A stretch of 48,315 bases of DNA, from sequence record OR466728.1; one strand, written 5' to 3'. Shown one piece after another: positions 875-48,315 of the stretch. Position 1 is the first letter of the stretch. Each line of letters opens with the position of its first letter. Source of the stretch: Escherichia phage ES. The position numbers and the translations under genes are program-made. Under the pieces are notes generated by a model. The model made no database searches, had not been told where the DNA came from, and saw only the letters and a list, made by a program, of their open reading frames with translations.

Positions 875-1351
875 ATGGATTGGGGTGATTTCTTCTATCT
901 TAGTGATGATTCCGTTTCTGGTATAAAGTGGAAGGTTAATAAGGGTCGGTCAATGGCTGGTGACGACGCTTTAACATCTGTTGGTAATGGATATTACAAA
1001 GGCAGACTCAACCAGAAGACAACGTACGCCCACAGGGTCGTTTACTTTCTTAACTATGGCGTAATCCCTGATGTTATAGATCATATGGATGGTAATGGGC
1101 TTAACAACTCAATAGAAAACCTAAGGGATGGCACCACAGCCAAGAATATGCAAAACAAGCTATGTAAGGGTTACAGCTACAATAAGAGGGATGACGTTTA
1201 TTATGCTCAGGTAACTACAAATGGGGTGACTAAACATGTAGGTTCTTTTGCAAGCAAGGAATTGGCTATTGCTGCTTACCTAAAGGAGAAGGAATTGCAG
1301 CATGATTTCTATAACAAAGAGAGGAAGATATGCTTGTTTGGGAAAGTATGA
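875..1351 (+). CDS. HNH homing endonuclease with AP2-like DNA-binding domain
   Basis: HNH signature YAHRVVY...IDHMDGNGLNN...NLR, then AP2-like C-terminal segment; RBS AAGGAG. Confidence 0.7.
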   Translation: MDWGDFFYLSDDSVSGIKWKVNKGRSMAGDDALTSVGNGYYKGRLNQKTTYAHRVVYFLNYGVIPDVIDHMDGNGLNNSIENLRDGTTAKNMQNKLCKGYSYNKRDDVYYAQVTTNGVTKHVGSFASKELAIAAYLKEKELQHDFYNKERKICLFGKV

Positions 1352-3373: not shown

Positions 3374-4645
3374 ATGGTAAAAGCAGATTCATACGCCACG
3401 CAATTTCTTGGTGGCTCCAGTGATGGTAGCGAGATTTACGGGCACTTTGGCAACACGTATCTTACACCTCCTTTCGCTGATTCACTGTACGCATCAAACT
3501 CAATTGTACGCCGCATCGTCGACACCATACCGGAGACAGCAATCGCCGCAGGTTTCCATATCGATGGTATTGATAACGAAGGTGAATTCTGGTCCAGGTG
3601 GGATTACCTGAAGGTTAACGAGTCAATCTCTGACGCATGGTCATGGGCGAGGTTATTTGGCGGCTCTGCAATTGTGGCTATCGTTAAGGACAATCGTGCG
3701 CTAACTAGCCCGGTACGTGAAGGCGCGGAACTTGAATCACTTCGCGTTTATGAGCGTAGCCAGGTAAGAGTTCAGACTAAGGAGGAAAACCCTCGCAATG
3801 TGCGATTCGGTAAGCCATTAACGTATCGCATCACGCCAGAAGGTGGCGCCATGTTTTATGATGTGCACTACTCGCGAGTTCACATTATTGATGGCGAGAA
3901 GATTCCTAGTTCATTGCGTCGCGGTAATGACGGGTGGGGTGCTAGCGTTCTGGTTCCTGACCTGCTTGAATCAATCAAGGATTATCAGACGTGTGAGAAA
4001 CTGGCAACTCAGTTATTGCGCCGCAAGCAGCAGGCGGTGTGGAAGGCTAAAGGCCTTGCTGAACTGTGTGACGACGCGGAAGGTTTTGGTGCGGCGAGGT
4101 TGAGGCTTGCCCAGGTTGATGATAACTCTGGCGTTGGTCGCGCGATTGGTATCGACGCTGAAGCTGAAGAGTACAGCGTTCTTAACTCGGATATTGGTGG
4201 GATTGATGGATTCCTCGATAAGAAGTTCGACAGAATTGTTGCTCTGAGCGGTATCCATGAAATCATTCTCAAAGGTCGTAACGTTGGCGGGTTGTCATCA
4301 AGCCAGAATACAGCGCTAGAGACTTTCCACAAGCTAATCGACCGCAAGCGCAATGAGGAGTTACTTCCAGTGCTTGGTTTCTTAATCCCATTCATCACAA
4401 CCGAGCAGGAATGGTCAGTTGAGTTTAACCCTCTAGCTCAGGAATCGAAAAAGGACCGAGCTGAAATACTGAAGAATAACGTTGATTCAATAGCCGCCCT
4501 CATCACTAACGGCGTAATGGATGCTGATGAAGCACGAGATACCTTGCGCGCATTAGCCCCAGAGGTTAAGATTGGTGAGGGTTCGATTGCAAATGAGCAG
4601 CCCGCTCAGGAAGAATCACCAAAAGAGGAGCCTGCAATTGAATAA
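3374..4645 (+). CDS. portal protein (putative)
   Basis: 423 aa from ATG 3374 (RBS GGAG); large ORF directly after terL; call rests on gene order and size. Confidence 0.55.
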   Translation: MVKADSYATQFLGGSSDGSEIYGHFGNTYLTPPFADSLYASNSIVRRIVDTIPETAIAAGFHIDGIDNEGEFWSRWDYLKVNESISDAWSWARLFGGSAIVAIVKDNRALTSPVREGAELESLRVYERSQVRVQTKEENPRNVRFGKPLTYRITPEGGAMFYDVHYSRVHIIDGEKIPSSLRRGNDGWGASVLVPDLLESIKDYQTCEKLATQLLRRKQQAVWKAKGLAELCDDAEGFGAARLRLAQVDDNSGVGRAIGIDAEAEEYSVLNSDIGGIDGFLDKKFDRIVALSGIHEIILKGRNVGGLSSSQNTALETFHKLIDRKRNEELLPVLGFLIPFITTEQEWSVEFNPLAQESKKDRAEILKNNVDSIAALITNGVMDADEARDTLRALAPEVKIGEGSIANEQPAQEESPKEEPAIE

Positions 4646-30371: not shown

Positions 30372-33300
30372 ATGCTTCCAGTAGAGCGCTTAGTGGCAAA
30401 CTTTGATCAAGAGAAAATCAAACAGATTCAGAAAGATTACCAGTTTGGAGACATAACTCCTTACGAATTCCAGTGTGTAACATTTGACGCAATTGGTAAG
30501 GCTATTGGTAAGTACGAGGCTCCATTCATCGCAGACCTGTCTGTATCTGCTGGTAAAACAATAATTCTTGCCATGATTGGGAAAAGAATGGAGCAACTTG
30601 GACTTCCTTATATGGTACTGTCTCGCCAGTCAGAGATTATCAGCCAGAACGCAGAGGAACTCCGTAACTTCGGTATCCGTAATAGCGTCTATTGCGCTGG
30701 ACTTAACGTTAAATCAGTTTACTACCCAACCATAGTGGCTAGTGAGGGTACAGCTGCCAATGGCCTGTTTAAGGGGCTTGGTGACTATGTTCCTGCTGTT
30801 ATCGCGATAGATGAGTGCTTAACTGGAGACACGATGATAACCACCGATTCAGGGATGATGAGGATTGATAGCGAAGACCTTATCAATCATAAAATAAAAT
30901 GCATAAACGAAAGCACTGGTGATTACTTCTATCATAAGCCAAAAAGAGTTTTTACTAATGGTGTAAGACATGTATCATCAATTAAATTAGAAAGCGGAGA
31001 GGAAATAAAATGCACGAGTACACACAAACTTTATTCGAACGGCTGCTGGGTAGGAGCGGGAAAACTTCGTATTGGGATGAATCTGTCGCTAGACGGCTCG
31101 CAGGACAAATTTACGAAAAAGCTCCTGCGTGCAAGTGTGGCTGTGGTGAAAAAGTTATGCCGCATTCAAGCAAGGGGTTAGGCGTACTTCTTAAGAACCC
31201 TTTCGATTTCTATTTGGATTACAGAACGGGGCATCATAATTCAACCGTCAACCCATCAATGGAGGTTGATGACTTTTTACATCAAAACATTCTTGCGGCA
31301 ATGGCTGGTGATGGTTGCTTGATTAAAAATACAGAAAAAGGAACGCATAGGCTATCTTGGAATATGGGAAATAAGGAGCACGCACTAAGCAAGGTTGAAA
31401 GGTTTGCAAAACTAAACCCTAGATACAGGGAGAAGAAAAACCCTGGATTTGGCGACAACTGGTTTTGCGTATCAACATCATGTACGAAAGTTCTGGATTC
31501 ATATGCTGATAAGTACGGAAATTCTAAGGATGGTTACGATATTGGAAAGATATGCAGAGAGCTTGATCCAGTTGGTTGGGCTGCTTACTTTGGTGATGAT
31601 GGTCATTGCACTGTAAGCTCAGGGAAGAGGGTTGTAGAAATCCACACCGAATCATTTAGCAGGCGTGAAGTTCAATCAGTAGTTGATGCGCTAATAGCAT
31701 TTATTGCTAATGACGGAGTTAATGTTAGAAGCTATATTGGCGGCAAGAAAAAGAGAGAGCTTTACTCAGTATCAATAACAACGAGGTCGGCACAAGATGA
31801 GTTTTTTAAGAGAATTAGTAAGCACATGGAAAATGGCGTGGAATACAAAATCAAGCAAAATTAAAGACATCTCACCCATTGGCAAGGAACTTGTTTGGGA
31901 TATAGAGATGCCTGAGCACCATAATTTCATTGCTGACGGGGTCGTGGCACATAATTGCCACATGGTGGACCATATGGATATCGTAGAAGCTGAAGAGAAT
32001 GAGGAAACATTCGAGCAGATGAGCACGAAGAAGGGTGAGATGGTCTTTAAGGATGGTGTGAATACCGGGCTTCTTGGCACTGGTCGCGCGCAATACACGT
32101 TAATCATTACCGAAATGAAGCGTCGATGCAAGGAGAAGTACGGTCGCGAACTTCGTATCTTTGGGTTAACTGGTAGCCCGTACCGTAACAACGACCACAT
32201 TGTAGTTAGTAACCCAAATGTCCGTGGATTCTGGCGCAAAACTGTAATGCAAGTGCCAACCAGCTACCTTGTTGACTTGGGGTTCGTTGTTCCTACTGTC
32301 TACGGTGAAGTTGGTGATTTGGGCTACGACCTTAGTGAGTTCACTCCTGATGGAAGTGATGGGGTTAAGGACTTCAGCAAGAAAGAAATGGATGCGATGG
32401 CTGCAAAGATTCACGAAAACCAAACGATGACACAAAAGATAATGGGATTTGCTGCTAGGTTTATGGAAACAAGGAATGCTGCATTGGTAACTTGCGCTGG
32501 CAAACAGCATTGCGAGGAGGCGGCAGCCGCACTTCCAGAAGGTGTTACTTGGGCGATAGTTACCAACTCCACTGGTGATAAGAAGCGTAGAGAGATACTT
32601 GAGAAGGCAGCCAGCGGAGAATATAAGTTCATATTTCAGATTGGTTGCCTCACAACTGGCGTAAACTGCCCCCCGTGGGATACAAGCATTATCCTGAGGA
32701 AGGTTGGTAGCATTACTCTACTCATTCAGTTGCTTGGTCGTGGTATGCGTATCCTTAAGAAGAAGCACAAAGAAGCTGGAATGGTAAAAGATGACCATGT
32801 TGTTCTTGATTTTGCCGGGACGCTTGACGATATGGCAGAACTCTACTTCGACCCAATTATAGAAGAGGTTCAGGACCAGAAGTTTAAGTCATCCAGGAAA
32901 GGGGGTGATGAACCAAGAATTTGCCCAGCATGTTCTTATGAGAATTCTCCTTTCGCACGGCGCTGTAATAATGTGATTGACGGTAAACGATGCGAGCATT
33001 TTTTTCAGTTCCGTCTTTGCGAAGATATTGAGGACCCGCAGACGAAAGTTATCGTTAAGAAAGGTTGCGGAGAGAAAAATGACGTTGCAGCAAAGAACTG
33101 CCGCTGCTGCGGAGAGATGCTGATAGACCCAAATGCAAAGCTATCTGGAAAAATGTATCGGAAAGGGGACTGGTTGAGAGTTTATGACTTCAAGATTGGG
33201 TTGACAAAAAACCAGTCAGGGATCGTTGCTTCATATGAGGTAATGGCTCATAGTGGAGATAAGTTCCGAGCTTATGAAACATTCTTCCCGGAGTCAGACC

Positions 33301-33506
33301 ATCGTGTTTGTTCTGTCAAATGGAAGGCGTTTTGCTCAACTCACATCGAGAACAGGACTGAGGCTTTTAGGATTGGCAGATTGCGTAATGCTAAAATGAT
33401 TATGACAAATGCACATCTTTTCCGTGCGCCGCTAAGGATTACGCACCGCAAGAATCAGAAGTCGCAAGATATTATCGCCAACAAATCATTTACGATGGAG
33501 GATTGA
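30372..33506 (+). CDS. SF2 DExH-box DNA helicase, interrupted by an intein (exteins 30372-30815 and 31956-33506)
   Basis: Walker A SVSAGKT; motif II DE|CH restored on excision; three track ORFs (30372, 31010, 31797) belong to one gene. Confidence 0.75.
30816..31955 (+). mobile_element. intein with LAGLIDADG homing-endonuclease domain (1140 nt, 380 codons)
   Basis: starts CLTGDTMI, block B TSTHKL, LAGLIDADG-like ILAAMAGDGCL and AAYFGDDGHC, ends NFIADGVVAHN before +1 Cys; endonuclease domain is in a different frame. Confidence 0.8.
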
Positions 33507-35525: not shown

Positions 35526-36659
35526 ATGGCAGCATCAAAGATTACAAATGAACAGCTTATCGAAGAGCTGAAAAGCGGCCTGACTAACAAGGCAATTGCA
35601 GAGAAGTACGGCATGAATATTCGCAACGTTGAGCTTCGTCGCAGTAAGTTGGCTAAGAGTGGTATTGGGCATGGTAATGAAGGTATCAAGAAGCTAGTTC
35701 CTGACGGTTATTTAGTCAAGGGCACCTCAACAATGATTGATGCGGAAGGGAATGAGAAGCTGCGTTGGGTTAAGACTTCGATTGATGCTGAGAAGCAAGA
35801 AGAGATGCTTCAGCAGATTGTTAAGGCTCTTACAGACGAGGTTCCTCGCGAGACTCCAAAGCCACTCAGTGAATCAAGCTATGAAGATACATTGAGTCTC
35901 TACCCTGTATTTGATATGCACATTGGCGCAATGGCTCACCATGCAGAGTGTGGGGAGAACTACAGTACAGAAATTGCAGAGCGAGTGCTTAACCAATACT
36001 TTGATTATGCAGTTGCTAAGGCCCCGAATTCATCAAAAGCCGTATTACTGATTGGTGGAGACTTCCTTCACTCGGATGGAATGGAAGCTGTAACTCCAAC
36101 CAGCAAGCACGTACTTGATCAAGATAGCCGTTATCATAAACTTGTCTACGTAGCTGTTCGTGCAACTCGCCGCGCCGTCAGTAAGATGCTTGACAAGCAT
36201 AAAGAGGTTGAGGTTCAGATTATACCAGGCAACCACGACCTTTCTGGGATGATTTGGCTTCGAGCTGCAATGGCTGCCTTCTACATGGATGAGCCTCGTG
36301 TAAATGTTGATGCCTCACCAGCCGCTCTTCACGTGACGGAGTTTGGTAAAACATTGTTGGGTTACTGCCATGGTCATGAATTGCGAAAGCCTGACACTCG
36401 TCTTTCAACTCTTGCGCGCGACCATCGCAAAGCATTTGGTAATGCTGAATACGTTTATACACATAGTGGCCATTATCATCATCAGACGGTTACTGAGGGT
36501 AATCTTGGAATTGATGAGTCACACGGTCAGTTGGGTGCTAAAGATGCGTACAGCGCAAACGGAGGGTATCGCTCTTATCGTCAGGCCTCAGTAATTATCT
36601 ATAGCTCAGAGTACGGTGAAGTTGGTCGATTCACTTGCCGACCTGAAATGTTTAAGTAA
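35526..36659 (+). CDS. calcineurin-like metallophosphoesterase with N-terminal HTH domain
   Basis: phosphoesterase motifs DMHIG, GGDFLHSD, PGNHD; N-terminal HTH-like LTNKAIAEKYGMNIRNV. Confidence 0.55.
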   Translation: MAASKITNEQLIEELKSGLTNKAIAEKYGMNIRNVELRRSKLAKSGIGHGNEGIKKLVPDGYLVKGTSTMIDAEGNEKLRWVKTSIDAEKQEEMLQQIVKALTDEVPRETPKPLSESSYEDTLSLYPVFDMHIGAMAHHAECGENYSTEIAERVLNQYFDYAVAKAPNSSKAVLLIGGDFLHSDGMEAVTPTSKHVLDQDSRYHKLVYVAVRATRRAVSKMLDKHKEVEVQIIPGNHDLSGMIWLRAAMAAFYMDEPRVNVDASPAALHVTEFGKTLLGYCHGHELRKPDTRLSTLARDHRKAFGNAEYVYTHSGHYHHQTVTEGNLGIDESHGQLGAKDAYSANGGYRSYRQASVIIYSSEYGEVGRFTCRPEMFK

Positions 36660-36677
36660 TAGCACTTTTTGTTAATA
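36660..36677 (+). promoter_or_regulatory. dyad box copy 10 (TAGCACTTTTTGTTAATA)
   Basis: immediately after the TAA stop of 35526-36659; ATG of 36733 is 73 nt downstream; -10 weak (CAAAAT). Confidence 0.4.
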
Positions 36678-36732
36678 AAGCCTCAAAGGATTGAGGCAAA
36701 ATGAATAAACGATAACGATATGAGGAGTTGTA

Positions 36733-37206
36733 ATGATTTACGTGTTTGATATTGATGGAACTGTTGCTAACAATGAACATAGAAGCCACCTCTTACCATC
36801 TAGTGACCTTCACTTGACTTCAAGTTGGAGTGATTACAATAGAGCCTGTTCTGGAGATTCACCGATAATCCCAATGATAAACATGATGAATGCGTTAGCT
36901 GAGTTATCGCCAGTTTACATCATGACTTCAAGAAGTGACGAAGTCGAATGTATGACGCTTGAATGGCTTCAGTATAATAATATTAATTATGATGGAATAT
37001 ATATGAGGAGTAGATTGGATAACAGAAATGACTATATCATTAAAGAGATGTGGCTAAATGATTTGTGTAATGGTGACAAAGCAAGTGTGATAATCTTTGA
37101 GGATAATCCTAATGTTATCAGTCACCTAAGGAATTGCGGATATACTGTAATGTCAGTTTGTGAATATAAAGAATTACCAAAAGACTGCGAATCTCACGGA
37201 GAATAA
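36733..37206 (+). CDS. HAD-superfamily phosphatase (polynucleotide 3'-phosphatase-like)
   Basis: motif I VFDIDGTV at N-terminus; 157 aa; RBS GAGGAG. Confidence 0.55.
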   Translation: MIYVFDIDGTVANNEHRSHLLPSSDLHLTSSWSDYNRACSGDSPIIPMINMMNALAELSPVYIMTSRSDEVECMTLEWLQYNNINYDGIYMRSRLDNRNDYIIKEMWLNDLCNGDKASVIIFEDNPNVISHLRNCGYTVMSVCEYKELPKDCESHGE

Positions 37207-37207
37207 A

Positions 37208-37762
37208 ATGAAAAAGTTAATCATCCTTAATGCACCCCCTGGTGCTGGAAAAGATACAGTTGCAGATATCATTGTTAATCTTGGAATTTGCAAGGATAAG
37301 GTTTCATTCAAGTCACCAATGTTTAATGTTGCAAAAGGAATACTATCAAGTGATGAGTTTGATGGATTTATTAATAATTACGATGACCGAGAGTACAAAG
37401 AATCACCACACGAATTTCTTGGTGGAATGACTGTTCGTGAATTTATGATTTGGATTAGCGAATCAGTTATGAAGCCAGTCTTTGGTGATGATGTTTTCGG
37501 CAAAAGGCTCACACAATCACTTGGTGATGGATGCTACATTTGTTCAGACGGTGGATTTGCGAGTGAAATCGAACCACTGATTGGCAACGGCGTTGAGGTT
37601 ACATTGATTAGGCTTCACAGGCCTGGTTATACTTTCGAAGGAGATAGTAGGTCATACCTTAGTTGCGTCTGCGCAAGAGAGATTGATGTTGATGTTATTG
37701 AAGGTGATATTAAAAGAACTACAGAAAAAGTAATTAGTGCAATCAATAGCACGAATTGCTAA
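37208..37762 (+). CDS. P-loop kinase (nucleotide or polynucleotide kinase-like)
   Basis: Walker A LNAPPGAGKDT at residues 6-16; 184 aa from ATG 37208 (RBS GGAG); ends NSTNC inside a dyad box. Confidence 0.55.
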   Translation: MKKLIILNAPPGAGKDTVADIIVNLGICKDKVSFKSPMFNVAKGILSSDEFDGFINNYDDREYKESPHEFLGGMTVREFMIWISESVMKPVFGDDVFGKRLTQSLGDGCYICSDGGFASEIEPLIGNGVEVTLIRLHRPGYTFEGDSRSYLSCVCAREIDVDVIEGDIKRTTEKVISAINSTNC

Positions 37763-37764
37763 AC
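37747..37764 (+). promoter_or_regulatory. dyad box copy 11 (TAGCACGAATTGCTAAAC)
   Basis: overlaps the last codons of 37208-37762; AATAAT about 23 nt downstream, CATCGAAAAC; ATG of 37821 is 74 nt downstream. Confidence 0.5.
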
Positions 37765-37820
37765 AATCACCTTAGAGATGCGGAATAATCAACACATCGA
37801 AAACAAGAGAGGATTCAAAA

Positions 37821-37994
37821 ATGACTAAATTATACTGCGTTAAAAACAACTCCAAGACACTGCCTTTTACCGAGAGCCAACCTTATAGCGGAGAGTCGCT
37901 TGGAGATGGTTACTACAAGATTTACGGAGACGATATGACTCACATCCTTGCGCCGATTGATGGCTCTTTGGTGGAATTTATTATCGCAGATTAA
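37821..37994 (+). CDS. hypothetical small protein
   Basis: 57-aa ORF, RBS AAGAGAGG, followed by strong terminator. Confidence 0.4.
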   Translation: MTKLYCVKNNSKTLPFTESQPYSGESLGDGYYKIYGDDMTHILAPIDGSLVEFIIAD

Positions 37995-38021
37995 CACATC
38001 AAAAACATAGATTTGCATGCG

Positions 38022-38047
38022 GGGGGCCTTTTGGCTCCCTTTTTTTT
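38022..38047 (+). terminator. rho-independent terminator
   Basis: 7-bp stem GGGGGCC/GGCTCCC with one wobble, TTTT loop, 8 T. Confidence 0.55.
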
Positions 38048-38121
38048 GCTTATAATTTGCCACCGCCTAATGTATGATATTTGCACTATGTATTGACAAA
38101 TTAGGATTTAAAGGTGATCAC

Positions 38122-38337
38122 ATGAGGGAAGTAATTAACGCCGCCACGGCATCAACCGGCGGAGCCGCTGTAACTGGTGCCGCAACTGGTCAAATGACTA
38201 TAGCAATAATCAGCCTTGTGGCTCTTGTTGTTTTCGGGCTGTGGGGAGCATATTGGAAGTTTAAGGACAGTCAGGCAATCAGGAAGGCTCTAGAGTCGGG
38301 TGATTTAAAGACAGCTATCAATATTAGGAGTAAGTAA
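38122..38337 (+). CDS. holin (putative)
   Basis: 71 aa from ATG 38122 (RBS AGGTGA); one hydrophobic TMD IAIISLVALVVFGLWGAYW and charged C-terminus; directly upstream of endolysin. Confidence 0.55.
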   Translation: MREVINAATASTGGAAVTGAATGQMTIAIISLVALVVFGLWGAYWKFKDSQAIRKALESGDLKTAINIRSK

Positions 38338-38822
38338 TGAAGCAGAAGCTGGTAATTAGTGCAGCGACGGCTGTGGCAATATACATCGCAGCGCCGATTA
38401 TTGAGCTAGTAGAAGGTGTGGAATACAAGCCTTACATGGACATTGCAGGCATTCCTACGGTTTGTTCAGGTATCACTGGTCCTGATGTGGTGTGGGGTAA
38501 AAAGTACAGTGCAAGGGAGTGCAGGAACTTACTGGAGAAACACATCCAGATTCATGGAAAGTATGTGCAGGATGCAGTAACTTACCCAATCTCTCCACAG
38601 ACAAGGGCGGCGTTAATCAGCTTTAGCTACAACGTTGGTGGCGCTGCAATGAGGAAGTCAACGGCAGTAAGGCTGATTAATCAGGGCAAGATTGAAGAGG
38701 GTTGTAATGCTCTCGCCTCCTGGAATAAAGCTCGAGTAAATGGCAAGCTAAAAGTTGTTAAAGGCCTCGTTAACAGGCGCAACGAGGAGATTAAATTATG
38801 CTTAAGTGGGGTGGGTAAATGA
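38337..38822 (+). CDS. SAR endolysin (T4-lysozyme-like)
   Basis: N-terminal weakly hydrophobic signal-anchor-release segment, then E-x8-D-x5-T catalytic triad (ELVEGVEYKPYMDIAGIPT). Confidence 0.75.
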   Translation: MKQKLVISAATAVAIYIAAPIIELVEGVEYKPYMDIAGIPTVCSGITGPDVVWGKKYSARECRNLLEKHIQIHGKYVQDAVTYPISPQTRAALISFSYNVGGAAMRKSTAVRLINQGKIEEGCNALASWNKARVNGKLKVVKGLVNRRNEEIKLCLSGVGK

Positions 38823-39205
38823 AGGCTGCGTTAATTGCTGCGGTAATTATACTTTCTGGTTGCTCGGCAACATCTGCGCTGACCGGGTTGATTGGTAGTA
38901 AGCCAGAGATTAGCGCTCAAGCAGGTGCGGAGAATAACAAGGTTGGAGTAGGGCTAACTAATAAGGTTGATTCAAGTTCCAGCGCAAAGGCTGAAGTGAA
39001 GAACTCTAAGGTTGACACTCTTGATAGTTCAAGCGGTAAAAAGACTTCTGATAACTCAATCAAGGCATCAACAATCACGGCTGAGAAGATTGAAATCACC
39101 AACAATGACTCGTCTGCAATCCCGTGGATTGGGAGTGGAATCATGTTTTGCGTCATCATCATTCTGCTCTTAATGATATTCAGGAAAAACAAAAAAGCCC
39201 CGTAA
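38819..39205 (+). CDS. unimolecular spanin (T1 gp11-like)
   Basis: N-terminal lipoprotein signal with lipobox ILSGC and C-terminal TMD GIMFCVIIILLLMIF in one 128-aa protein. Confidence 0.65.
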   Translation: MKAALIAAVIILSGCSATSALTGLIGSKPEISAQAGAENNKVGVGLTNKVDSSSSAKAEVKNSKVDTLDSSSGKKTSDNSIKASTITAEKIEITNNDSSAIPWIGSGIMFCVIIILLLMIFRKNKKAP

Positions 39206-39218
39206 TGGGGCTATTTTT
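39196..39218. terminator. bidirectional terminator between lysis cassette and minus-strand block
   Basis: AGCCCC/GGGGCT stem, A-run upstream and T-run downstream. Confidence 0.55.
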
Positions 39219-41194: not shown

Positions 41195-41212
41195 CATTAT
41201 CAATTTGTGCTA
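41195..41212 (-). promoter_or_regulatory. dyad box copy 12 (minus strand TAGCACAAATTGATAATG)
   Basis: TAG is the stop of HNH gene 41210-41707; perfect TATAAT 22 nt downstream on minus strand; 56 nt upstream of ATG 41139. Confidence 0.5.
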
Positions 41213-41707
41213 TTTGCCATGATTTGGGTGATAACCCAGCCTCACCTCTGCAACAATTCTTGCCTCACATGCAGAGATAAAGTCATCAAAAAAACCAAGG
41301 TGAACAGTCTTTCCACCACTCTGTATTGAGGCCCTCCACTTACCTGTTCTTTTGTATATGGCGACTCCAGTTACACCACTTTTATTATCAAACCTTAATG
41401 ATGAGTTCATTGAATTCACTTTTTGGGTAACAAGCCTTAGATTTTCAATCCTATTGTCACGCCTATTTCCATTTATGTGGTCTATGAATAGACAATCAGG
41501 TATGTCTCCATTAGTCATCTCCCATATAATTCTGTGAGCCATTGTGTAGCCGATTCCCTTATTGCTAACCCTAACGTACCCGCTTGTTGTAACCTCCGTG
41601 TTAACTGGCTTATTTGCATATTTTGTATTCCAAGATTGAGTTCTATCTGACCTCTCCTTTCTGTACAAAACTGAATCTTTTATATAAAAAATTTCATTCC
41701 AGTTCAT
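41210..41707 (-). CDS. HNH homing endonuclease
   Basis: AHRIIWEMTNGDIPDCLFIDHINGNRRDNRIENLRLVTQKVN; ATG 41707 overlaps upstream stop (ATGA). Confidence 0.7.
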   Translation of the reverse strand: MNWNEIFYIKDSVLYRKERSDRTQSWNTKYANKPVNTEVTTSGYVRVSNKGIGYTMAHRIIWEMTNGDIPDCLFIDHINGNRRDNRIENLRLVTQKVNSMNSSLRFDNKSGVTGVAIYKRTGKWRASIQSGGKTVHLGFFDDFISACEARIVAEVRLGYHPNHGK

Positions 41708-42090
41708 GAGTATTTTGCTTCCATTTTGTATGTGCCACACAATGTTTTAAAGCCAACGTCATCCCTGTACAGCTGCCATGCAAAGCCACCCTCATCATAG
41801 ATGTACCCCGCTTGCTGGCCCAGTCCAGAGTGAAGGTTTACGATATATCTCTTGCCTTCTTTGAAGTCTTTCTTAACTCCTGACTTATGGTTAACATTAG
41901 TGCAGTAAAGCGTCTTCGTCTTAATGTATTTCCCACGCTCTTCAAGATTAATCCACTTGCCATTTTTCTTGATTTGCTCAAATTCAACTTCCTCAGCGAC
42001 ACCGTTAACCCACTGGTGAATCTTTTTAACGCGAGCTTTAAACAGTTTGTTATCGTTGCTAATCCAATTTTTGGTTATCGTAGTAGTCAT
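41704..42090 (-). CDS. hypothetical protein
   Basis: 128-aa ORF, RBS AGAGAG upstream of ATG 42090. Confidence 0.45.
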   Translation of the reverse strand: MTTTITKNWISNDNKLFKARVKKIHQWVNGVAEEVEFEQIKKNGKWINLEERGKYIKTKTLYCTNVNHKSGVKKDFKEGKRYIVNLHSGLGQQAGYIYDEGGFAWQLYRDDVGFKTLCGTYKMEAKYS

Positions 42091-45673: not shown

Positions 45674-46096
45674 ATGAAATTAAGCAAATCTCAAAGGGAA
45701 GAGTTGAAGGGCAAGTTCGGTGGTCGCTGCGCTTATTGTGGGTGTGAACTACCTGAGAAAGGCTGGCATGCTGACCATGTTGAACCGGTGCTACGTAAAT
45801 CTGAGGTATGCATGAAGGCAGCGGAGAAAGGAACTTTCAAGCTGAAGGCGACAGGTGAGTTTAATCGACCACAAGCTGATCGAATGGAAAACCTTTACCC
45901 TGCATGTGCTCCATGCAACCTCATGAAAACTTGCTATTCCCTTGAAATGTTCAGGGAACAGGTGTCTCTTCAAGTCGCTCGCGGGCGTAAGAGCAGCATG
46001 AATTTTCGCACGGCAGAGCGGTTCGGCCTCATCTCCATAGTGGAGGATCCAGTTGTTTTCTGGTTTGAGAAGTTTGAGCAAATTAACAAAATCTGA
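45674..46096 (+). CDS. HNH endonuclease (zinc-finger HNH type)
   Basis: CAYCGC...WHADHVEPV...NLYPACAPCN motif arrangement. Confidence 0.65.
   Translation: MKLSKSQREELKGKFGGRCAYCGCELPEKGWHADHVEPVLRKSEVCMKAAEKGTFKLKATGEFNRPQADRMENLYPACAPCNLMKTCYSLEMFREQVSLQVARGRKSSMNFRTAERFGLISIVEDPVVFWFEKFEQINKI

Positions 46097-48160: not shown

Positions 48161-48315
<155 letters not shown>

What the first reader, a model, noticed from the sequence alone, without database searches (positions are those of the whole stretch)
36733..37762. Overlapping HAD-phosphatase and P-loop kinase genes: a possible split polynucleotide kinase-phosphatase
A DxDGT (FDIDGTV) HAD phosphatase and a GxxGxGKDT P-loop kinase are encoded back to back with only 1 nt between them. 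T4 polynucleotide kinase-phosphatase combines the same two activities in one protein, in the opposite order, to heal nicked nucleic acid ends. A split version here could be an end-healing or nucleotide-salvage module, but no ligase partner is evident and a dNMP kinase plus nucleotidase is equally possible.
Basis: inference. Interest (0 to 1): 0.5.

Follow-up and report, generated by a model that had tools for sequence, protein, structure and literature searches.

The report
Phage nucleotide phosphatase plus dNMP kinase pair
Two back-to-back genes of a T1-like coliphage encode a small phosphatase related to the T4 Pnkp phosphatase domain and to the T5 dNMP phosphatase, and a kinase related to the T4 and T5 dNMP kinases, so this is most likely an ordinary nucleotide-supply module rather than a split nucleic-acid end-repair enzyme.

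Summary
The window is Escherichia phage AN_ECEAS (Drexlerviridae). A 157-aa HAD phosphatase (36733-37206) and a 184-aa P-loop kinase (37208-37762) are 1 nt apart. The kinase's ribosome-binding site lies inside the end of the HAD gene.

The "split Pnkp" reading is half right.
- The HAD passes Pfam HAD_PNKP and keeps all catalytic residues of the T4 Pnkp phosphatase.
- The HAD also shares its PHROG with T5 Dmp, a 5'-dNMP phosphatase.
- The kinase is not Pnkp-type. Its best structural match is T4 gp1 dNMP kinase, and it shares its PHROG with T4 gp1 and T5 Dnk.

Context points to mononucleotide metabolism.
- Kinases with the same conserved residues sit beside RNR, ThyA and dUTPase genes in other phages.
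- One kinase is fused to a domain related to the 5'-deoxynucleotidase YfbR.
- A 41%-identical HAD is coupled to nrdB in a phage that also has full PseT and RnlA.

The pairing looks functional. HAD-kinase fusions exist, and a metallophosphoesterase-HAD-kinase trio recurs in three phage lineages.

The best reading is a dNMP-pool module serving T1-type reuse of host DNA, as recent papers already suggest. The substrates are untested. Low novelty, modest interest.

The parts
35526..36659 (+). Upstream neighbour: 377-aa metallophosphoesterase with an N-terminal helix-turn-helix-like region (annotated elsewhere as 'DNA repair exonuclease' or 'phosphoesterase'). It is a likely third member of the module.
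36722..36727 (+). Shine-Dalgarno-like GAGGAG, 5 nt upstream of the HAD start codon
   Evidence: Read directly from the sequence.
36733..37206 (+). 157-aa HAD (DxDxT) phosphomonoesterase of the HAD_PNKP / phrog_415 family. It has no kinase domain, although GenBank labels it 'putative polynucleotide kinase'.
   Evidence: PF25109 56 bits against a 27.6 cut-off; phrog_415 2.9e-48. D6, D8, T65, K104 and D124 align with T4 Pnkp D165, D167, S211, K258 and D278 (residue roles from PMC3592404). T5 Dmp is in the same PHROG.
37198..37201 (+). GGAG ribosome-binding site of the kinase gene, inside the last codons of the HAD gene. It fits translational coupling.
   Evidence: Read directly from the sequence. 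There are 6 nt to ATG 37208, and the HAD stop is at 37204-37206.
37208..37762 (+). 184-aa P-loop kinase, a compact relative of the T4 gp1 and T5 Dnk dNMP kinases
37821..37994 (+). 57-aa DUF7244 (standalone SH3-like) gene, last gene before the terminator. It is probably co-transcribed, but published work links it to the lysis cassette rather than to this module.
   Evidence: PF23896 7.4e-27; KanT1 paper PMC13164509.
38021..38050 (+). Intrinsic-terminator-like hairpin with a T-run that closes the transcription unit before the holin gene
   Evidence: 8-bp stem with 6 G-C pairs, followed by TTTTTTTGCT.

Best explanation
The two genes encode a co-expressed pair of enzymes that most likely act on mononucleotides.

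- The kinase is most likely a (d)NMP kinase of the T4 gp1 / T5 Dnk lineage. It would convert deoxynucleoside monophosphates to diphosphates, and host Ndk would then make the triphosphates.
- The HAD protein is an aspartyl-phosphate phosphomonoesterase. It sits between the T4 Pnkp 3'-phosphatase domain and the T5 5'-dNMP phosphatase Dmp. It most likely dephosphorylates nucleotides, either 5'- or 3'-dNMPs, or the 3'-phosphates left on DNA breakdown products.
- Together with the upstream metallophosphoesterase, a probable nuclease or phosphodiesterase, the pair would form an accessory cassette. That cassette would feed and trim the dNMP pool released when T1-like phages degrade the host chromosome and reuse its nucleotides.

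What is shown: family membership, intact catalytic residues, tight gene linkage, natural fusions, and nucleotide-metabolism neighbourhoods of homologues.

What is inferred: the substrates, the 5' versus 3' specificity of the HAD, the nuclease activity of the metallophosphoesterase, and the link to host-DNA recycling.
For: Kinase:
- It belongs to phrog_139 (3.4e-43) with T4 gp1 (1.8e-65) and T5 Dnk (1.4e-51), both known dNMP kinases.
- Foldseek against the whole PDB returns only small-molecule kinases in the top 50.
- The family HMM aligns collinearly to gp1 and Dnk through the GKDT P-loop, SFxxP, (S/T)(V/P)R and DxxFxxE motifs.
- Seventeen of the 25 invariant residues were checked in ten distant homologues and are unchanged whether or not a HAD is next door; R138 is not kept in three of them.
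- The homologues without a HAD lie beside ribonucleotide reductase, thymidylate synthase, dUTPase or nucleoside deoxyribosyltransferase genes.
- P0280 fuses the kinase to an HD domain related to Atu1052 and the 5'-deoxynucleotidase YfbR.

HAD:
- It shares phrog_415 with T5 Dmp (3.6e-57).
- It shares with Dmp, but not with T4 Pnkp, a roughly 14-residue insert just after motif I.
- A 41.5%-identical standalone HAD overlaps the stop codon of nrdB in phage E26, which also carries complete PseT and RnlA.

Pairing:
- The gap is 1 nt, with the ribosome-binding site inside the HAD gene.
- The HAD lies upstream on the same strand in 69 of 80 T1-like loci.
- HAD-kinase fusions P0172 and P0197 exist.
- A metallophosphoesterase-HAD-kinase trio recurs in Autographiviridae, in Yersinia phage 526-1 and in contig L099.

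Biology and literature:
- T1 and TLS degrade host DNA and reuse the nucleotides, and the genes responsible are unidentified (PMC11447400).
- The KanT1 paper already proposes that these two genes enhance nucleotide supply (PMC13164509).
Against: - No substrate has been tested for any member of either subfamily.
- The kinase does not reach Pfam DNMK (PF21448) at E <= 1. Its sequence match to gp1 and Dnk outside the P-loop is weak (20-23 bits).
- The D-(T/V)-R arginine of gp1 and Dnk is replaced by an invariant G-G.
- An HMM of the kinase-linked HADs scores T4 Pnkp-C higher (45 bits, full length) than T5 Dmp (18.7 bits, N-terminus only). T5 Dmp does not hit PF25109 at all.
- A 5'-dNMP phosphatase co-translated with, or fused to, a dNMP kinase would compete for the same substrate unless their specificities differ.
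- In two Autographiviridae the trio is followed directly by a DNA ligase gene, which fits an end-repair reading.
- The 80 T1-like loci are closely related, so their linkage counts are not independent.
Confidence: 0.6

Rival explanations
1. Split, reordered Pnkp-like end-healing system. The HAD removes 3'-phosphates (and 2',3'-cyclic phosphates, perhaps with the metallophosphoesterase) from broken DNA or RNA. The kinase phosphorylates 5'-OH ends. A host or phage ligase then seals the break, for example after attack by host nucleases.
For: - The HAD passes Pfam HAD_PNKP and keeps every T4 Pnkp phosphatase catalytic residue.
- An HMM of the kinase-linked HADs scores T4 Pnkp-C higher than T5 Dmp.
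- Tight coupling and natural fusion of a phosphatase with a kinase is the Pnkp logic.
- A metallophosphoesterase is the phosphatase module of bacterial Pnkp (Clostridium thermocellum type; from my own knowledge).
- The trio is followed directly by an ATP-dependent DNA ligase gene in Aeromonas phage Aer_P220 and Erwinia phage S2.
Against: - The kinase has no AAA_33 or phrog_505 match, whereas T4 Pnkp hits both.
- Where T4 Pnk has its general base D35 after strand 2, this family has an invariant lysine (the register is inferred).
- Kinases with the same conserved residues occur without any phosphatase in RNR, ThyA and dUTPase neighbourhoods.
- Phage E26 carries this HAD subfamily in addition to complete PseT and RnlA.
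- The window genome has no ligase.
- In Autographiviridae the ligase is part of the general DNA-metabolism block, so its adjacency may be incidental.
Confidence: 0.17
2. Hybrid pipeline. The metallophosphoesterase is the nuclease that degrades host DNA. The HAD is a genuine 3'-phosphatase that clears 3'-phosphate-blocked ends, 3'-dNMPs or 3',5'-bisphosphates so that degradation yields usable 5'-dNMPs. The kinase then phosphorylates those 5'-dNMPs.
For: - This reading reconciles the HAD's closer overall similarity to T4 Pnkp-C with the dNMP-kinase nature of the kinase.
- It explains why a phosphatase and a kinase can be fused without a futile cycle.
- It explains the recurrent trio, including a permuted gene order.
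- T4 Pnkp phosphatase is known to accept 3'-TMP (PMC3592404).
- T1 reuses host nucleotides (PMC11447400).
Against: - Nothing shows that host DNA breakdown in T1 infection produces 3'-phosphates.
- The metallophosphoesterase is a persistent core gene in 508 of 522 Drexlerviridae whether or not the HAD and kinase are present (PMC13164509). Within that family its adjacency may simply reflect an insertion hotspot.
- In 37 of 80 loci the HAD and kinase are 0.1-2.2 kb apart and no metallophosphoesterase was detected within the 4 kb fetched upstream.
Confidence: 0.2
3. The kinase phosphorylates a non-nucleotide phospho-metabolite, as animal phosphomevalonate kinase does, or is a regulatory ATPase. 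The HAD is a generic acid phosphatase. The linkage has no nucleotide-specific meaning.
For: - One source names a homologue 'phosphomevalonate kinase'.
- The HAD gives sub-threshold Acid_phosphat_B hits.
Against: - Phages have no isoprenoid pathway context.
- All informative neighbours are DNA or nucleotide enzymes.
- The closest characterised relatives of both proteins act on nucleotides or nucleic acids.
Confidence: 0.03

Closest known systems
T5 Dmp (deoxynucleoside 5'-monophosphatase) plus T5 Dnk (dNMP kinase)
   Same: Both window proteins fall in the same PHROGs as this characterised pair: phrog_415 for the HAD and Dmp, phrog_139 for the kinase and Dnk. The HAD shares with Dmp the DxDGT...HR motif and the insert after motif I. 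The kinase shares 35% identity with Dnk over its first 60 residues, plus the DxxFxxE motif. T5 also uses a predicted metallophosphatase (A1) for host DNA breakdown.
   Different: In T5 the two genes lie far apart and are expressed at different times, pre-early and early. Here they are 1 nt apart. The window proteins are much shorter (157 against 244 aa, 184 against 250 aa). Only the N-terminal third of the HAD aligns with Dmp. Dmp misses Pfam HAD_PNKP, and the window kinase misses Pfam DNMK. T5 discards host nucleotides, whereas T1-like phages reuse them. The window metallophosphoesterase shows no detectable sequence homology to A1.
T4 gp1 deoxynucleoside monophosphate kinase (PDB 1DEK)
   Different: Identity is 16-18%. 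gp1 has an insert of about 60 residues. The window kinase does not reach PF21448. The arginine of gp1's DTR motif is replaced by GG.
T4 polynucleotide kinase-phosphatase (PseT/Pnkp)
   Same: The HAD belongs to the same Pfam family as the Pnkp phosphatase domain. It aligns over its full length with the catalytic residues conserved: D6/D8/T65/K104/D124 correspond to D165/D167/S211/K258/D278, and R17/R67 to R176/R213. A phosphatase is paired with a P-loop kinase.
   Different: These are two separate genes in the opposite order. The kinase belongs to a different clade: it is not AAA_33 or phrog_505, and it lacks the D35/R38-type motif. The HAD carries a 14-residue insert that Pnkp lacks. The genome has no RNA or DNA ligase partner.
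Drexlerviridae 'polynucleotide kinase' and 'dNMP kinase' annotations (TLS Gp09/Gp14; KanT1 analysis)
   Same: These are the same gene families in the same phage family. They were already noted as the genes most often found directly after the 'DNA repair exonuclease', with the suggestion that they enhance nucleotide supply (PMC13164509 and PMC11447400).
   Different: Those papers rely on PHROG labels and take the HAD to be a polynucleotide kinase. They report no biochemistry, no fusions and no cross-family comparison.

Membership tests
T4-type Pnkp (bifunctional 5'-kinase/3'-phosphatase) | DxDxT acylphosphatase domain of the Pnkp type (Pfam PF25109 above the gathering score) | tested here: met
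   56 bits against a 27.6 cut-off. T4 Pnkp itself scores 199.8 bits.
T4-type Pnkp (bifunctional 5'-kinase/3'-phosphatase) | Phosphatase catalytic set: Asp nucleophile, Asp acid/base, Ser/Thr and Lys phosphate contacts, Asp Mg ligand | tested here: met
   D6, D8, T65, K104 and D124 align with D165, D167, S211, K258 and D278. Residue roles are from PMC3592404.
T4-type Pnkp (bifunctional 5'-kinase/3'-phosphatase) | Kinase domain of the Pnkp clade (Pfam AAA_33 / phrog_505, with the general-base Asp and Arg after strand 2) | tested here: not met
   No AAA_33 or phrog_505 hit, whereas T4 Pnkp hits both. An invariant K35 lies where D35 would be (register inferred). No polynucleotide kinase appears in the Foldseek top 50.
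T4-type Pnkp (bifunctional 5'-kinase/3'-phosphatase) | Both activities in one polypeptide, kinase N-terminal | tested here: not met
   There are two genes with the HAD first. Natural fusions exist but also have the HAD first.
T4-type Pnkp (bifunctional 5'-kinase/3'-phosphatase) | Ligase partner in the genome (Rnl1/Rnl2 or a DNA ligase) | tested here: not met
   No ligase is annotated anywhere in PP944860.1. The only large unassigned ORF is DUF6453.
T4-type Pnkp (bifunctional 5'-kinase/3'-phosphatase) | Activity on polynucleotide 5'-OH and 3'-phosphate ends | not testable with these tools
   This needs enzyme assays.
gp1/Dnk-type dNMP kinase | Profile membership with the characterised enzymes | tested here: inconclusive
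   phrog_139 is met (3.4e-43, alongside T4 gp1 at 1.8e-65 and T5 Dnk at 1.4e-51). Pfam DNMK PF21448 is not reached at E <= 1, whereas gp1 scores 358 bits and Dnk 43 bits.
gp1/Dnk-type dNMP kinase | gp1-like fold | tested here: met
gp1/Dnk-type dNMP kinase | Shared sequence motifs (GKD[T] P-loop, SFxxP after strand 2, (S/T)(V/P)R, DxxFxxE, RPG lid) | tested here: inconclusive
   The alignments to gp1 and Dnk are collinear but weak (19.6 and 22.6 bits). The arginine of D-(T/V)-R is replaced by G-G.
gp1/Dnk-type dNMP kinase | Phosphorylation of dNMPs | not testable with these tools
   This needs enzyme assays or complementation of T4 gene 1, tmk or gmk mutants.
T5 Dmp-type 5'-dNMP phosphatase | Profile membership with Dmp | tested here: met
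   phrog_415: the window HAD scores 2.9e-48 and T5 Dmp 3.6e-57.
T5 Dmp-type 5'-dNMP phosphatase | Full-length similarity to Dmp | tested here: not met
   BLASTP aligns only residues 2-52 (29% identity, E 6e-4). The HMM of kinase-linked HADs scores 18.7 bits over the N-terminus only.
T5 Dmp-type 5'-dNMP phosphatase | 5'-dNMP hydrolysis | not testable with these tools
   This needs enzyme assays.
Mre11/SbcD-type nuclease (upstream metallophosphoesterase) | Calcineurin-like metallophosphoesterase motifs and fold | tested here: inconclusive
Mre11/SbcD-type nuclease (upstream metallophosphoesterase) | Rad50/SbcC ATPase partner | tested here: not met
   None is annotated in the genome.

The most novel reading that the evidence does not exclude
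The metallophosphoesterase-HAD-kinase trio could be a mobile three-enzyme nucleic-acid end-processing system, in which a kinase from the gp1/NMP-kinase lineage has been recruited as a new type of polynucleotide 5'-kinase. Alternatively, the kinase could phosphorylate a 5'-phosphate on a polynucleotide end. Either way it would work with two different phosphoesterases to repair phage DNA or RNA cut by host defence nucleases, and a host or adjacent phage ligase would seal the break.
Probability: 0.12. Interest if true: 0.7.

Novelty: new member of a known kind. Interest (0 to 1): 0.3.

Why it matters
This matters mainly as a correction and as a lead.

- **Annotation error.** Thousands of phage genes carry the label 'polynucleotide kinase' through phrog_415, yet they encode a kinase-less HAD phosphatase whose PHROG also contains the T5 dNMP phosphatase. 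Annotation pipelines spread this misleading name.
- **An open T1 question.** Which genes let T1-like phages recycle the host chromosome into their own DNA has been unknown since the 1980s. The TLS reannotation says the responsible gene products are still unidentified. The metallophosphoesterase-HAD-kinase cassette is a concrete, easily deletable candidate set.
- **Defence systems.** Phage enzymes that reshape dNMP and dNTP pools are now known to interact with nucleotide-sensing or nucleotide-depleting bacterial defences. For example, Dmp mutations let T5-like phages escape the Clover system. This pair could therefore influence sensitivity to defence.

None of this would surprise a specialist in phage nucleotide metabolism.

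Tried and rejected
- **Sequence searches of the kinase against the PDB.** A single-sequence search and a 32-sequence profile search found only P-loop matches.
- **hhalign of the kinase profile against single T4 gp1 and T4 Pnkp sequences.** Both gave P-loop-only alignments with similar scores, so this did not discriminate.
- **NCBIfam.** It gave nothing for either protein.
- **Word-indexed homologue search with the HAD.** It reached only close relatives (28 hits), so no deep HAD alignment was built. Both structure-prediction jobs went to the kinase and the metallophosphoesterase, so the HAD was never modelled.
- **Homology between the window metallophosphoesterase and T5 A1, T5.034, T5.035, or the metallophosphoesterases of Aer_P220, ZPAH7B and PS3.** None was detectable with HMMs. 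The resemblance to T5 A1 is an analogy at superfamily level only.
- **First HAD HMM.** It included T4 Pnkp-C, so its T4 score was circular. I rebuilt it without T4.
- **Promoter scan.** It found no more sites than in shuffled sequence (13 against 13.2), so no promoter is claimed.
- **Retron Eco2 paper.** It looked relevant (Drexlerviridae plus polynucleotide kinase) but mentions PNK only as a laboratory reagent.
Full report
**Identity of the window**

The region 36000-38400 is 100% identical to Escherichia phage AN_ECEAS (PP944860.1), a member of Drexlerviridae, Braunvirinae. Window position equals record position plus 4360. GenBank annotates the first gene as 'putative polynucleotide kinase' and the second as 'hypothetical protein'.

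**The observation**

- The HAD ORF runs 36733-37206 (157 aa, MIYVFDIDGTV...).
- The mechanical ORF list starts the kinase at GTG 37160. Homologues, the GenBank call and a GGAG at 37198-37201 all place the start at ATG 37208 (MKKLIILNAPPGAGKDT; 184 aa; stop at 37760-37762).
- The HAD stop codon is 37204-37206, so one nucleotide separates the genes. The kinase ribosome-binding site lies inside the HAD coding sequence, an arrangement typical of translational coupling.
- A strong terminator-like hairpin at 38021-38050 follows the next small gene, DUF7244. The promoter scan found nothing above background.
- The pair sits in a G+C trough of 34-35%, against 45-47% in the flanks. This fits an accessory insert between the core metallophosphoesterase gene and the lysis cassette.

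**What the HAD is**

- It passes Pfam PF25109 HAD_PNKP (56 bits, cut-off 27.6) and matches phrog_415 at 2.9e-48.
- It aligns over its full length with residues 160-298 of T4 Pnkp. D6, D8, T65, K104 and D124 correspond to the nucleophile D165, the acid/base D167, the phosphate contacts S211 and K258, and the Mg ligand D278. R17 and R67 match R176 and R213 (residue roles from PMC3592404). It therefore looks catalytically competent.
- It has no kinase domain, so the database label is wrong.
- The experimentally characterised T5 deoxynucleoside 5'-monophosphatase Dmp is a full-length member of the same PHROG (3.6e-57). Dmp shares with the window HAD a roughly 14-residue insert directly after motif I that T4 Pnkp lacks.
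- Against this, an HMM built only from HADs that accompany this kinase scores T4 Pnkp-C at 45 bits over the whole domain and T5 Dmp at 18.7 bits over the N-terminus only. Dmp also misses PF25109.
- The protein therefore sits between a known 3'-phosphatase, which also accepts 3'-TMP, and a known 5'-dNMP phosphatase. Sequence alone cannot say which phosphate it removes.

**What the kinase is**

- It has no Pfam, NCBIfam or PDB sequence match beyond the P-loop. It matches phrog_139 at 3.4e-43.
- T4 gp1 (1.8e-65) and T5 Dnk (1.4e-51), the two characterised phage dNMP kinases, are in that same PHROG.
- The T4 Pnkp kinase domain belongs to phrog_505 and AAA_33, which the window kinase does not hit.
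- An AlphaFold2 model from 32 homologues has pLDDT 89.
- Foldseek over the whole PDB lists only small-molecule kinases in the top 50. The highest query-normalised TM-score, 0.64, is for 1DEK.
- A family HMM aligns collinearly with gp1 and Dnk through the GKDT P-loop, the SFxxP segment after strand 2, an (S/T)(V/P)R motif, DxxFxxE and (for gp1) RPG. gp1 and Dnk carry an insert of about 60 residues.
- Two differences stand out. The arginine of the D-(T/V)-R motif is an invariant G-G here. Where T4 Pnk has its general base D35, the family has an invariant lysine (this register is inferred).
- The family is large: 4,525 representative clusters at E <= 1e-3 and 1,451 phage genome records.

**Evidence that the two proteins work together**

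- In 80 T1-like IMG/VR loci, the HAD lies upstream on the same strand in 69. In 32 it is directly adjacent, in 37 it is 0.1-2.2 kb away, and in 11 it was not found within the flank. These loci are closely related and are not independent samples.
- Outside Drexlerviridae, the HAD lies directly upstream of the kinase in three Autographiviridae (Aeromonas phages Aer_P220 and ZPAH7B, Erwinia phage S2) and in Yersinia phage 526-1. The three of these HADs I scanned (Aer_P220, S2, 526-1) all pass PF25109.
- Two natural fusions have the HAD_PNKP domain at the N-terminus and this kinase at the C-terminus: P0172 (403 aa) and P0197 (461 aa). Both are confirmed at the DNA level.
- A metallophosphoesterase precedes the pair in the window, in the three Autographiviridae and in the Yersinia phage. 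The proteins in Erwinia S2 and Yersinia 526-1 are full-length orthologues of the window protein (1e-112, 1e-104). Those of Aer_P220 and ZPAH7B are unrelated at sequence level.
- On contig L099 the fusion gene is followed, not preceded, by an orthologue of the window metallophosphoesterase (1e-125). Linkage has survived a change of gene order.
- One caveat applies. Within Drexlerviridae the metallophosphoesterase is a persistent core gene (508 of 522 genomes) regardless of the pair (PMC13164509).

**Mononucleotides or polynucleotide ends?**

Several independent lines favour mononucleotides.

1. Both characterised relatives of the kinase are dNMP kinases, and its fold neighbours are NMP kinases.
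2. Seventeen of the kinase family's 25 invariant residues were checked in ten distant homologues, and all seventeen are conserved in every one. An eighteenth, R138, is kept in only seven.
3. Four of the six homologues without a HAD sit next to nucleotide-metabolism genes: ribonucleotide reductase and nucleoside deoxyribosyltransferase (LAh_6), thymidylate synthase and RNR (an rV5-like phage), dUTPase (Mangalitsa) or a pyrophosphatase (Vibrio phage 1701).
4. P0280 fuses the same kinase to an HD domain related to Atu1052 (5e-13) and the 5'-deoxynucleotidase YfbR (3e-3). It is found intact in several samples. This pairs the kinase with a phosphohydrolase domain of an unrelated fold, related to known 5'-deoxynucleotidases.
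5. In the RB49-like phage E26, a standalone HAD 41.5% identical to the window protein overlaps the stop codon of nrdB. The same genome keeps a complete PseT and RnlA. This HAD subfamily is therefore not a substitute for Pnkp.
6. T1 and TLS degrade host DNA and reuse the nucleotides, with the responsible genes unidentified (PMC11447400). The KanT1 study already suggested the two genes 'enhance nucleotide supply'.

The end-healing rival keeps some weight for these reasons.

- An HMM of the kinase-linked HADs scores T4 Pnkp-C higher than T5 Dmp.
- Fusing a phosphatase to a kinase is the Pnkp design.
- A metallophosphoesterase is the phosphatase of bacterial Pnkp (from my own knowledge).
- A DNA ligase gene follows the trio directly in Aer_P220 and Erwinia S2.
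- A 5'-dNMP phosphatase coupled to a dNMP kinase would compete for substrate unless their specificities differ.

A hybrid reading removes that last objection: a 3'-phosphatase clears breakdown products for a 5'-dNMP kinase.

**Ligase partner**

No ligase is annotated anywhere in the genome. The only large unassigned ORF is DUF6453.

**Verdict**

The 'split Pnkp' interpretation is only partly supported: the phosphatase half holds, the kinase half does not. I put about 0.6 on a mononucleotide-level function, 0.2 on the hybrid pipeline, and about 0.17 on genuine end healing.

Both families have characterised members, and the pair is already described, under partly wrong names, in recent Drexlerviridae papers. 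Novelty is therefore low. The useful additions here are:
- the correction of the annotation;
- the link to T5 Dmp;
- the natural fusions;
- the recurrence across phage families of a trio with a metallophosphoesterase, which gives a testable candidate set for T1 host-DNA recycling.

Noticed in passing
window 48161-48315: The last 155 bases of the window are a poly-G run (98% G). This is almost certainly a sequencing or assembly artefact at the contig end, not phage sequence. It probably accounts for part of the 234-base difference in length from the 48,081-bp GenBank record; I did not check this.
   Followed up: partly
window 30372-33506: The replicative helicase gene is broken into three ORFs. 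30372-31181 holds the helicase N-terminus plus an intein N-terminal fragment. 31010-31864 is in a different frame and encodes a LAGLIDADG_2 endonuclease. 31797-33506 is in the same frame as the first piece and holds an intein C-terminal fragment plus Helicase_C. This is either an intein whose homing-endonuclease part is frame-shifted, or sequencing errors. GenBank annotates the first piece as hypothetical.
   Followed up: partly
window 37821-37994: The 57-aa gene after the kinase is DUF7244, the standalone SH3-like protein recently described as part of the Drexlerviridae lysis module. That paper found it together with the two 'kinase' genes in only seven genomes, so this phage has a rare arrangement.
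   Followed up: partly
window 36700-37500: There is a G+C trough of 34-35% over the HAD gene and the start of the kinase gene, against 45-47% in the flanking metallophosphoesterase and lysis genes. The HAD is 35.4%, the kinase 38.2% and the whole window 44.3%. Megablast also shows mosaicism: some relatives match only from the kinase onward, others only the metallophosphoesterase.
   Followed up: partly
phrog_415 / window 36733-37206: The PHROG label 'polynucleotide kinase' is attached to a family of kinase-less HAD phosphatases that includes the T5 5'-dNMP phosphatase Dmp. The label has spread into many GenBank records, including this phage.
   Followed up: yes
L104 (Escherichia phage E26, MN655998.1) 4001-4477: A standalone HAD 41.5% identical to the window protein overlaps the stop codon of nrdB in an RB49-like phage. 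The same phage also carries endonuclease II, RnlA and a complete PseT a few kb downstream.
   Followed up: partly
P0280 (loci L100-L102): This is a 354-aa protein made of this kinase family fused to an HD-domain phosphohydrolase related to Atu1052 and the 5'-deoxynucleotidase YfbR. It is present as an intact ORF in several metagenome samples, but only on contigs of about 1.1 kb, so its genomic context is unknown.
   Followed up: partly
L099 6001-8500: On a 60.8-kb phage-like contig, the HAD-kinase fusion P0172 is followed by a full-length orthologue of the window metallophosphoesterase. This is the same three functions in a different order. A PAPS-reductase-like gene and a Dam-type methyltransferase gene follow.
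   Followed up: partly
window 39196-39212: A GC-rich hairpin is flanked by T-runs on both strands, between the end of the spanin gene and the convergent minus-strand genes. It looks like a bidirectional terminator.
   Followed up: no
window 875-1351, 41210-41740, 45674-46096: Several HNH or homing-endonuclease genes are scattered through the genome. One is directly upstream of the large terminase gene, one is an HNH_3 gene next to the DUF3987 gene, and one matches phrog_2118 (HNH endonuclease) but is annotated 'DNA repair ATPase' in GenBank.
   Followed up: no
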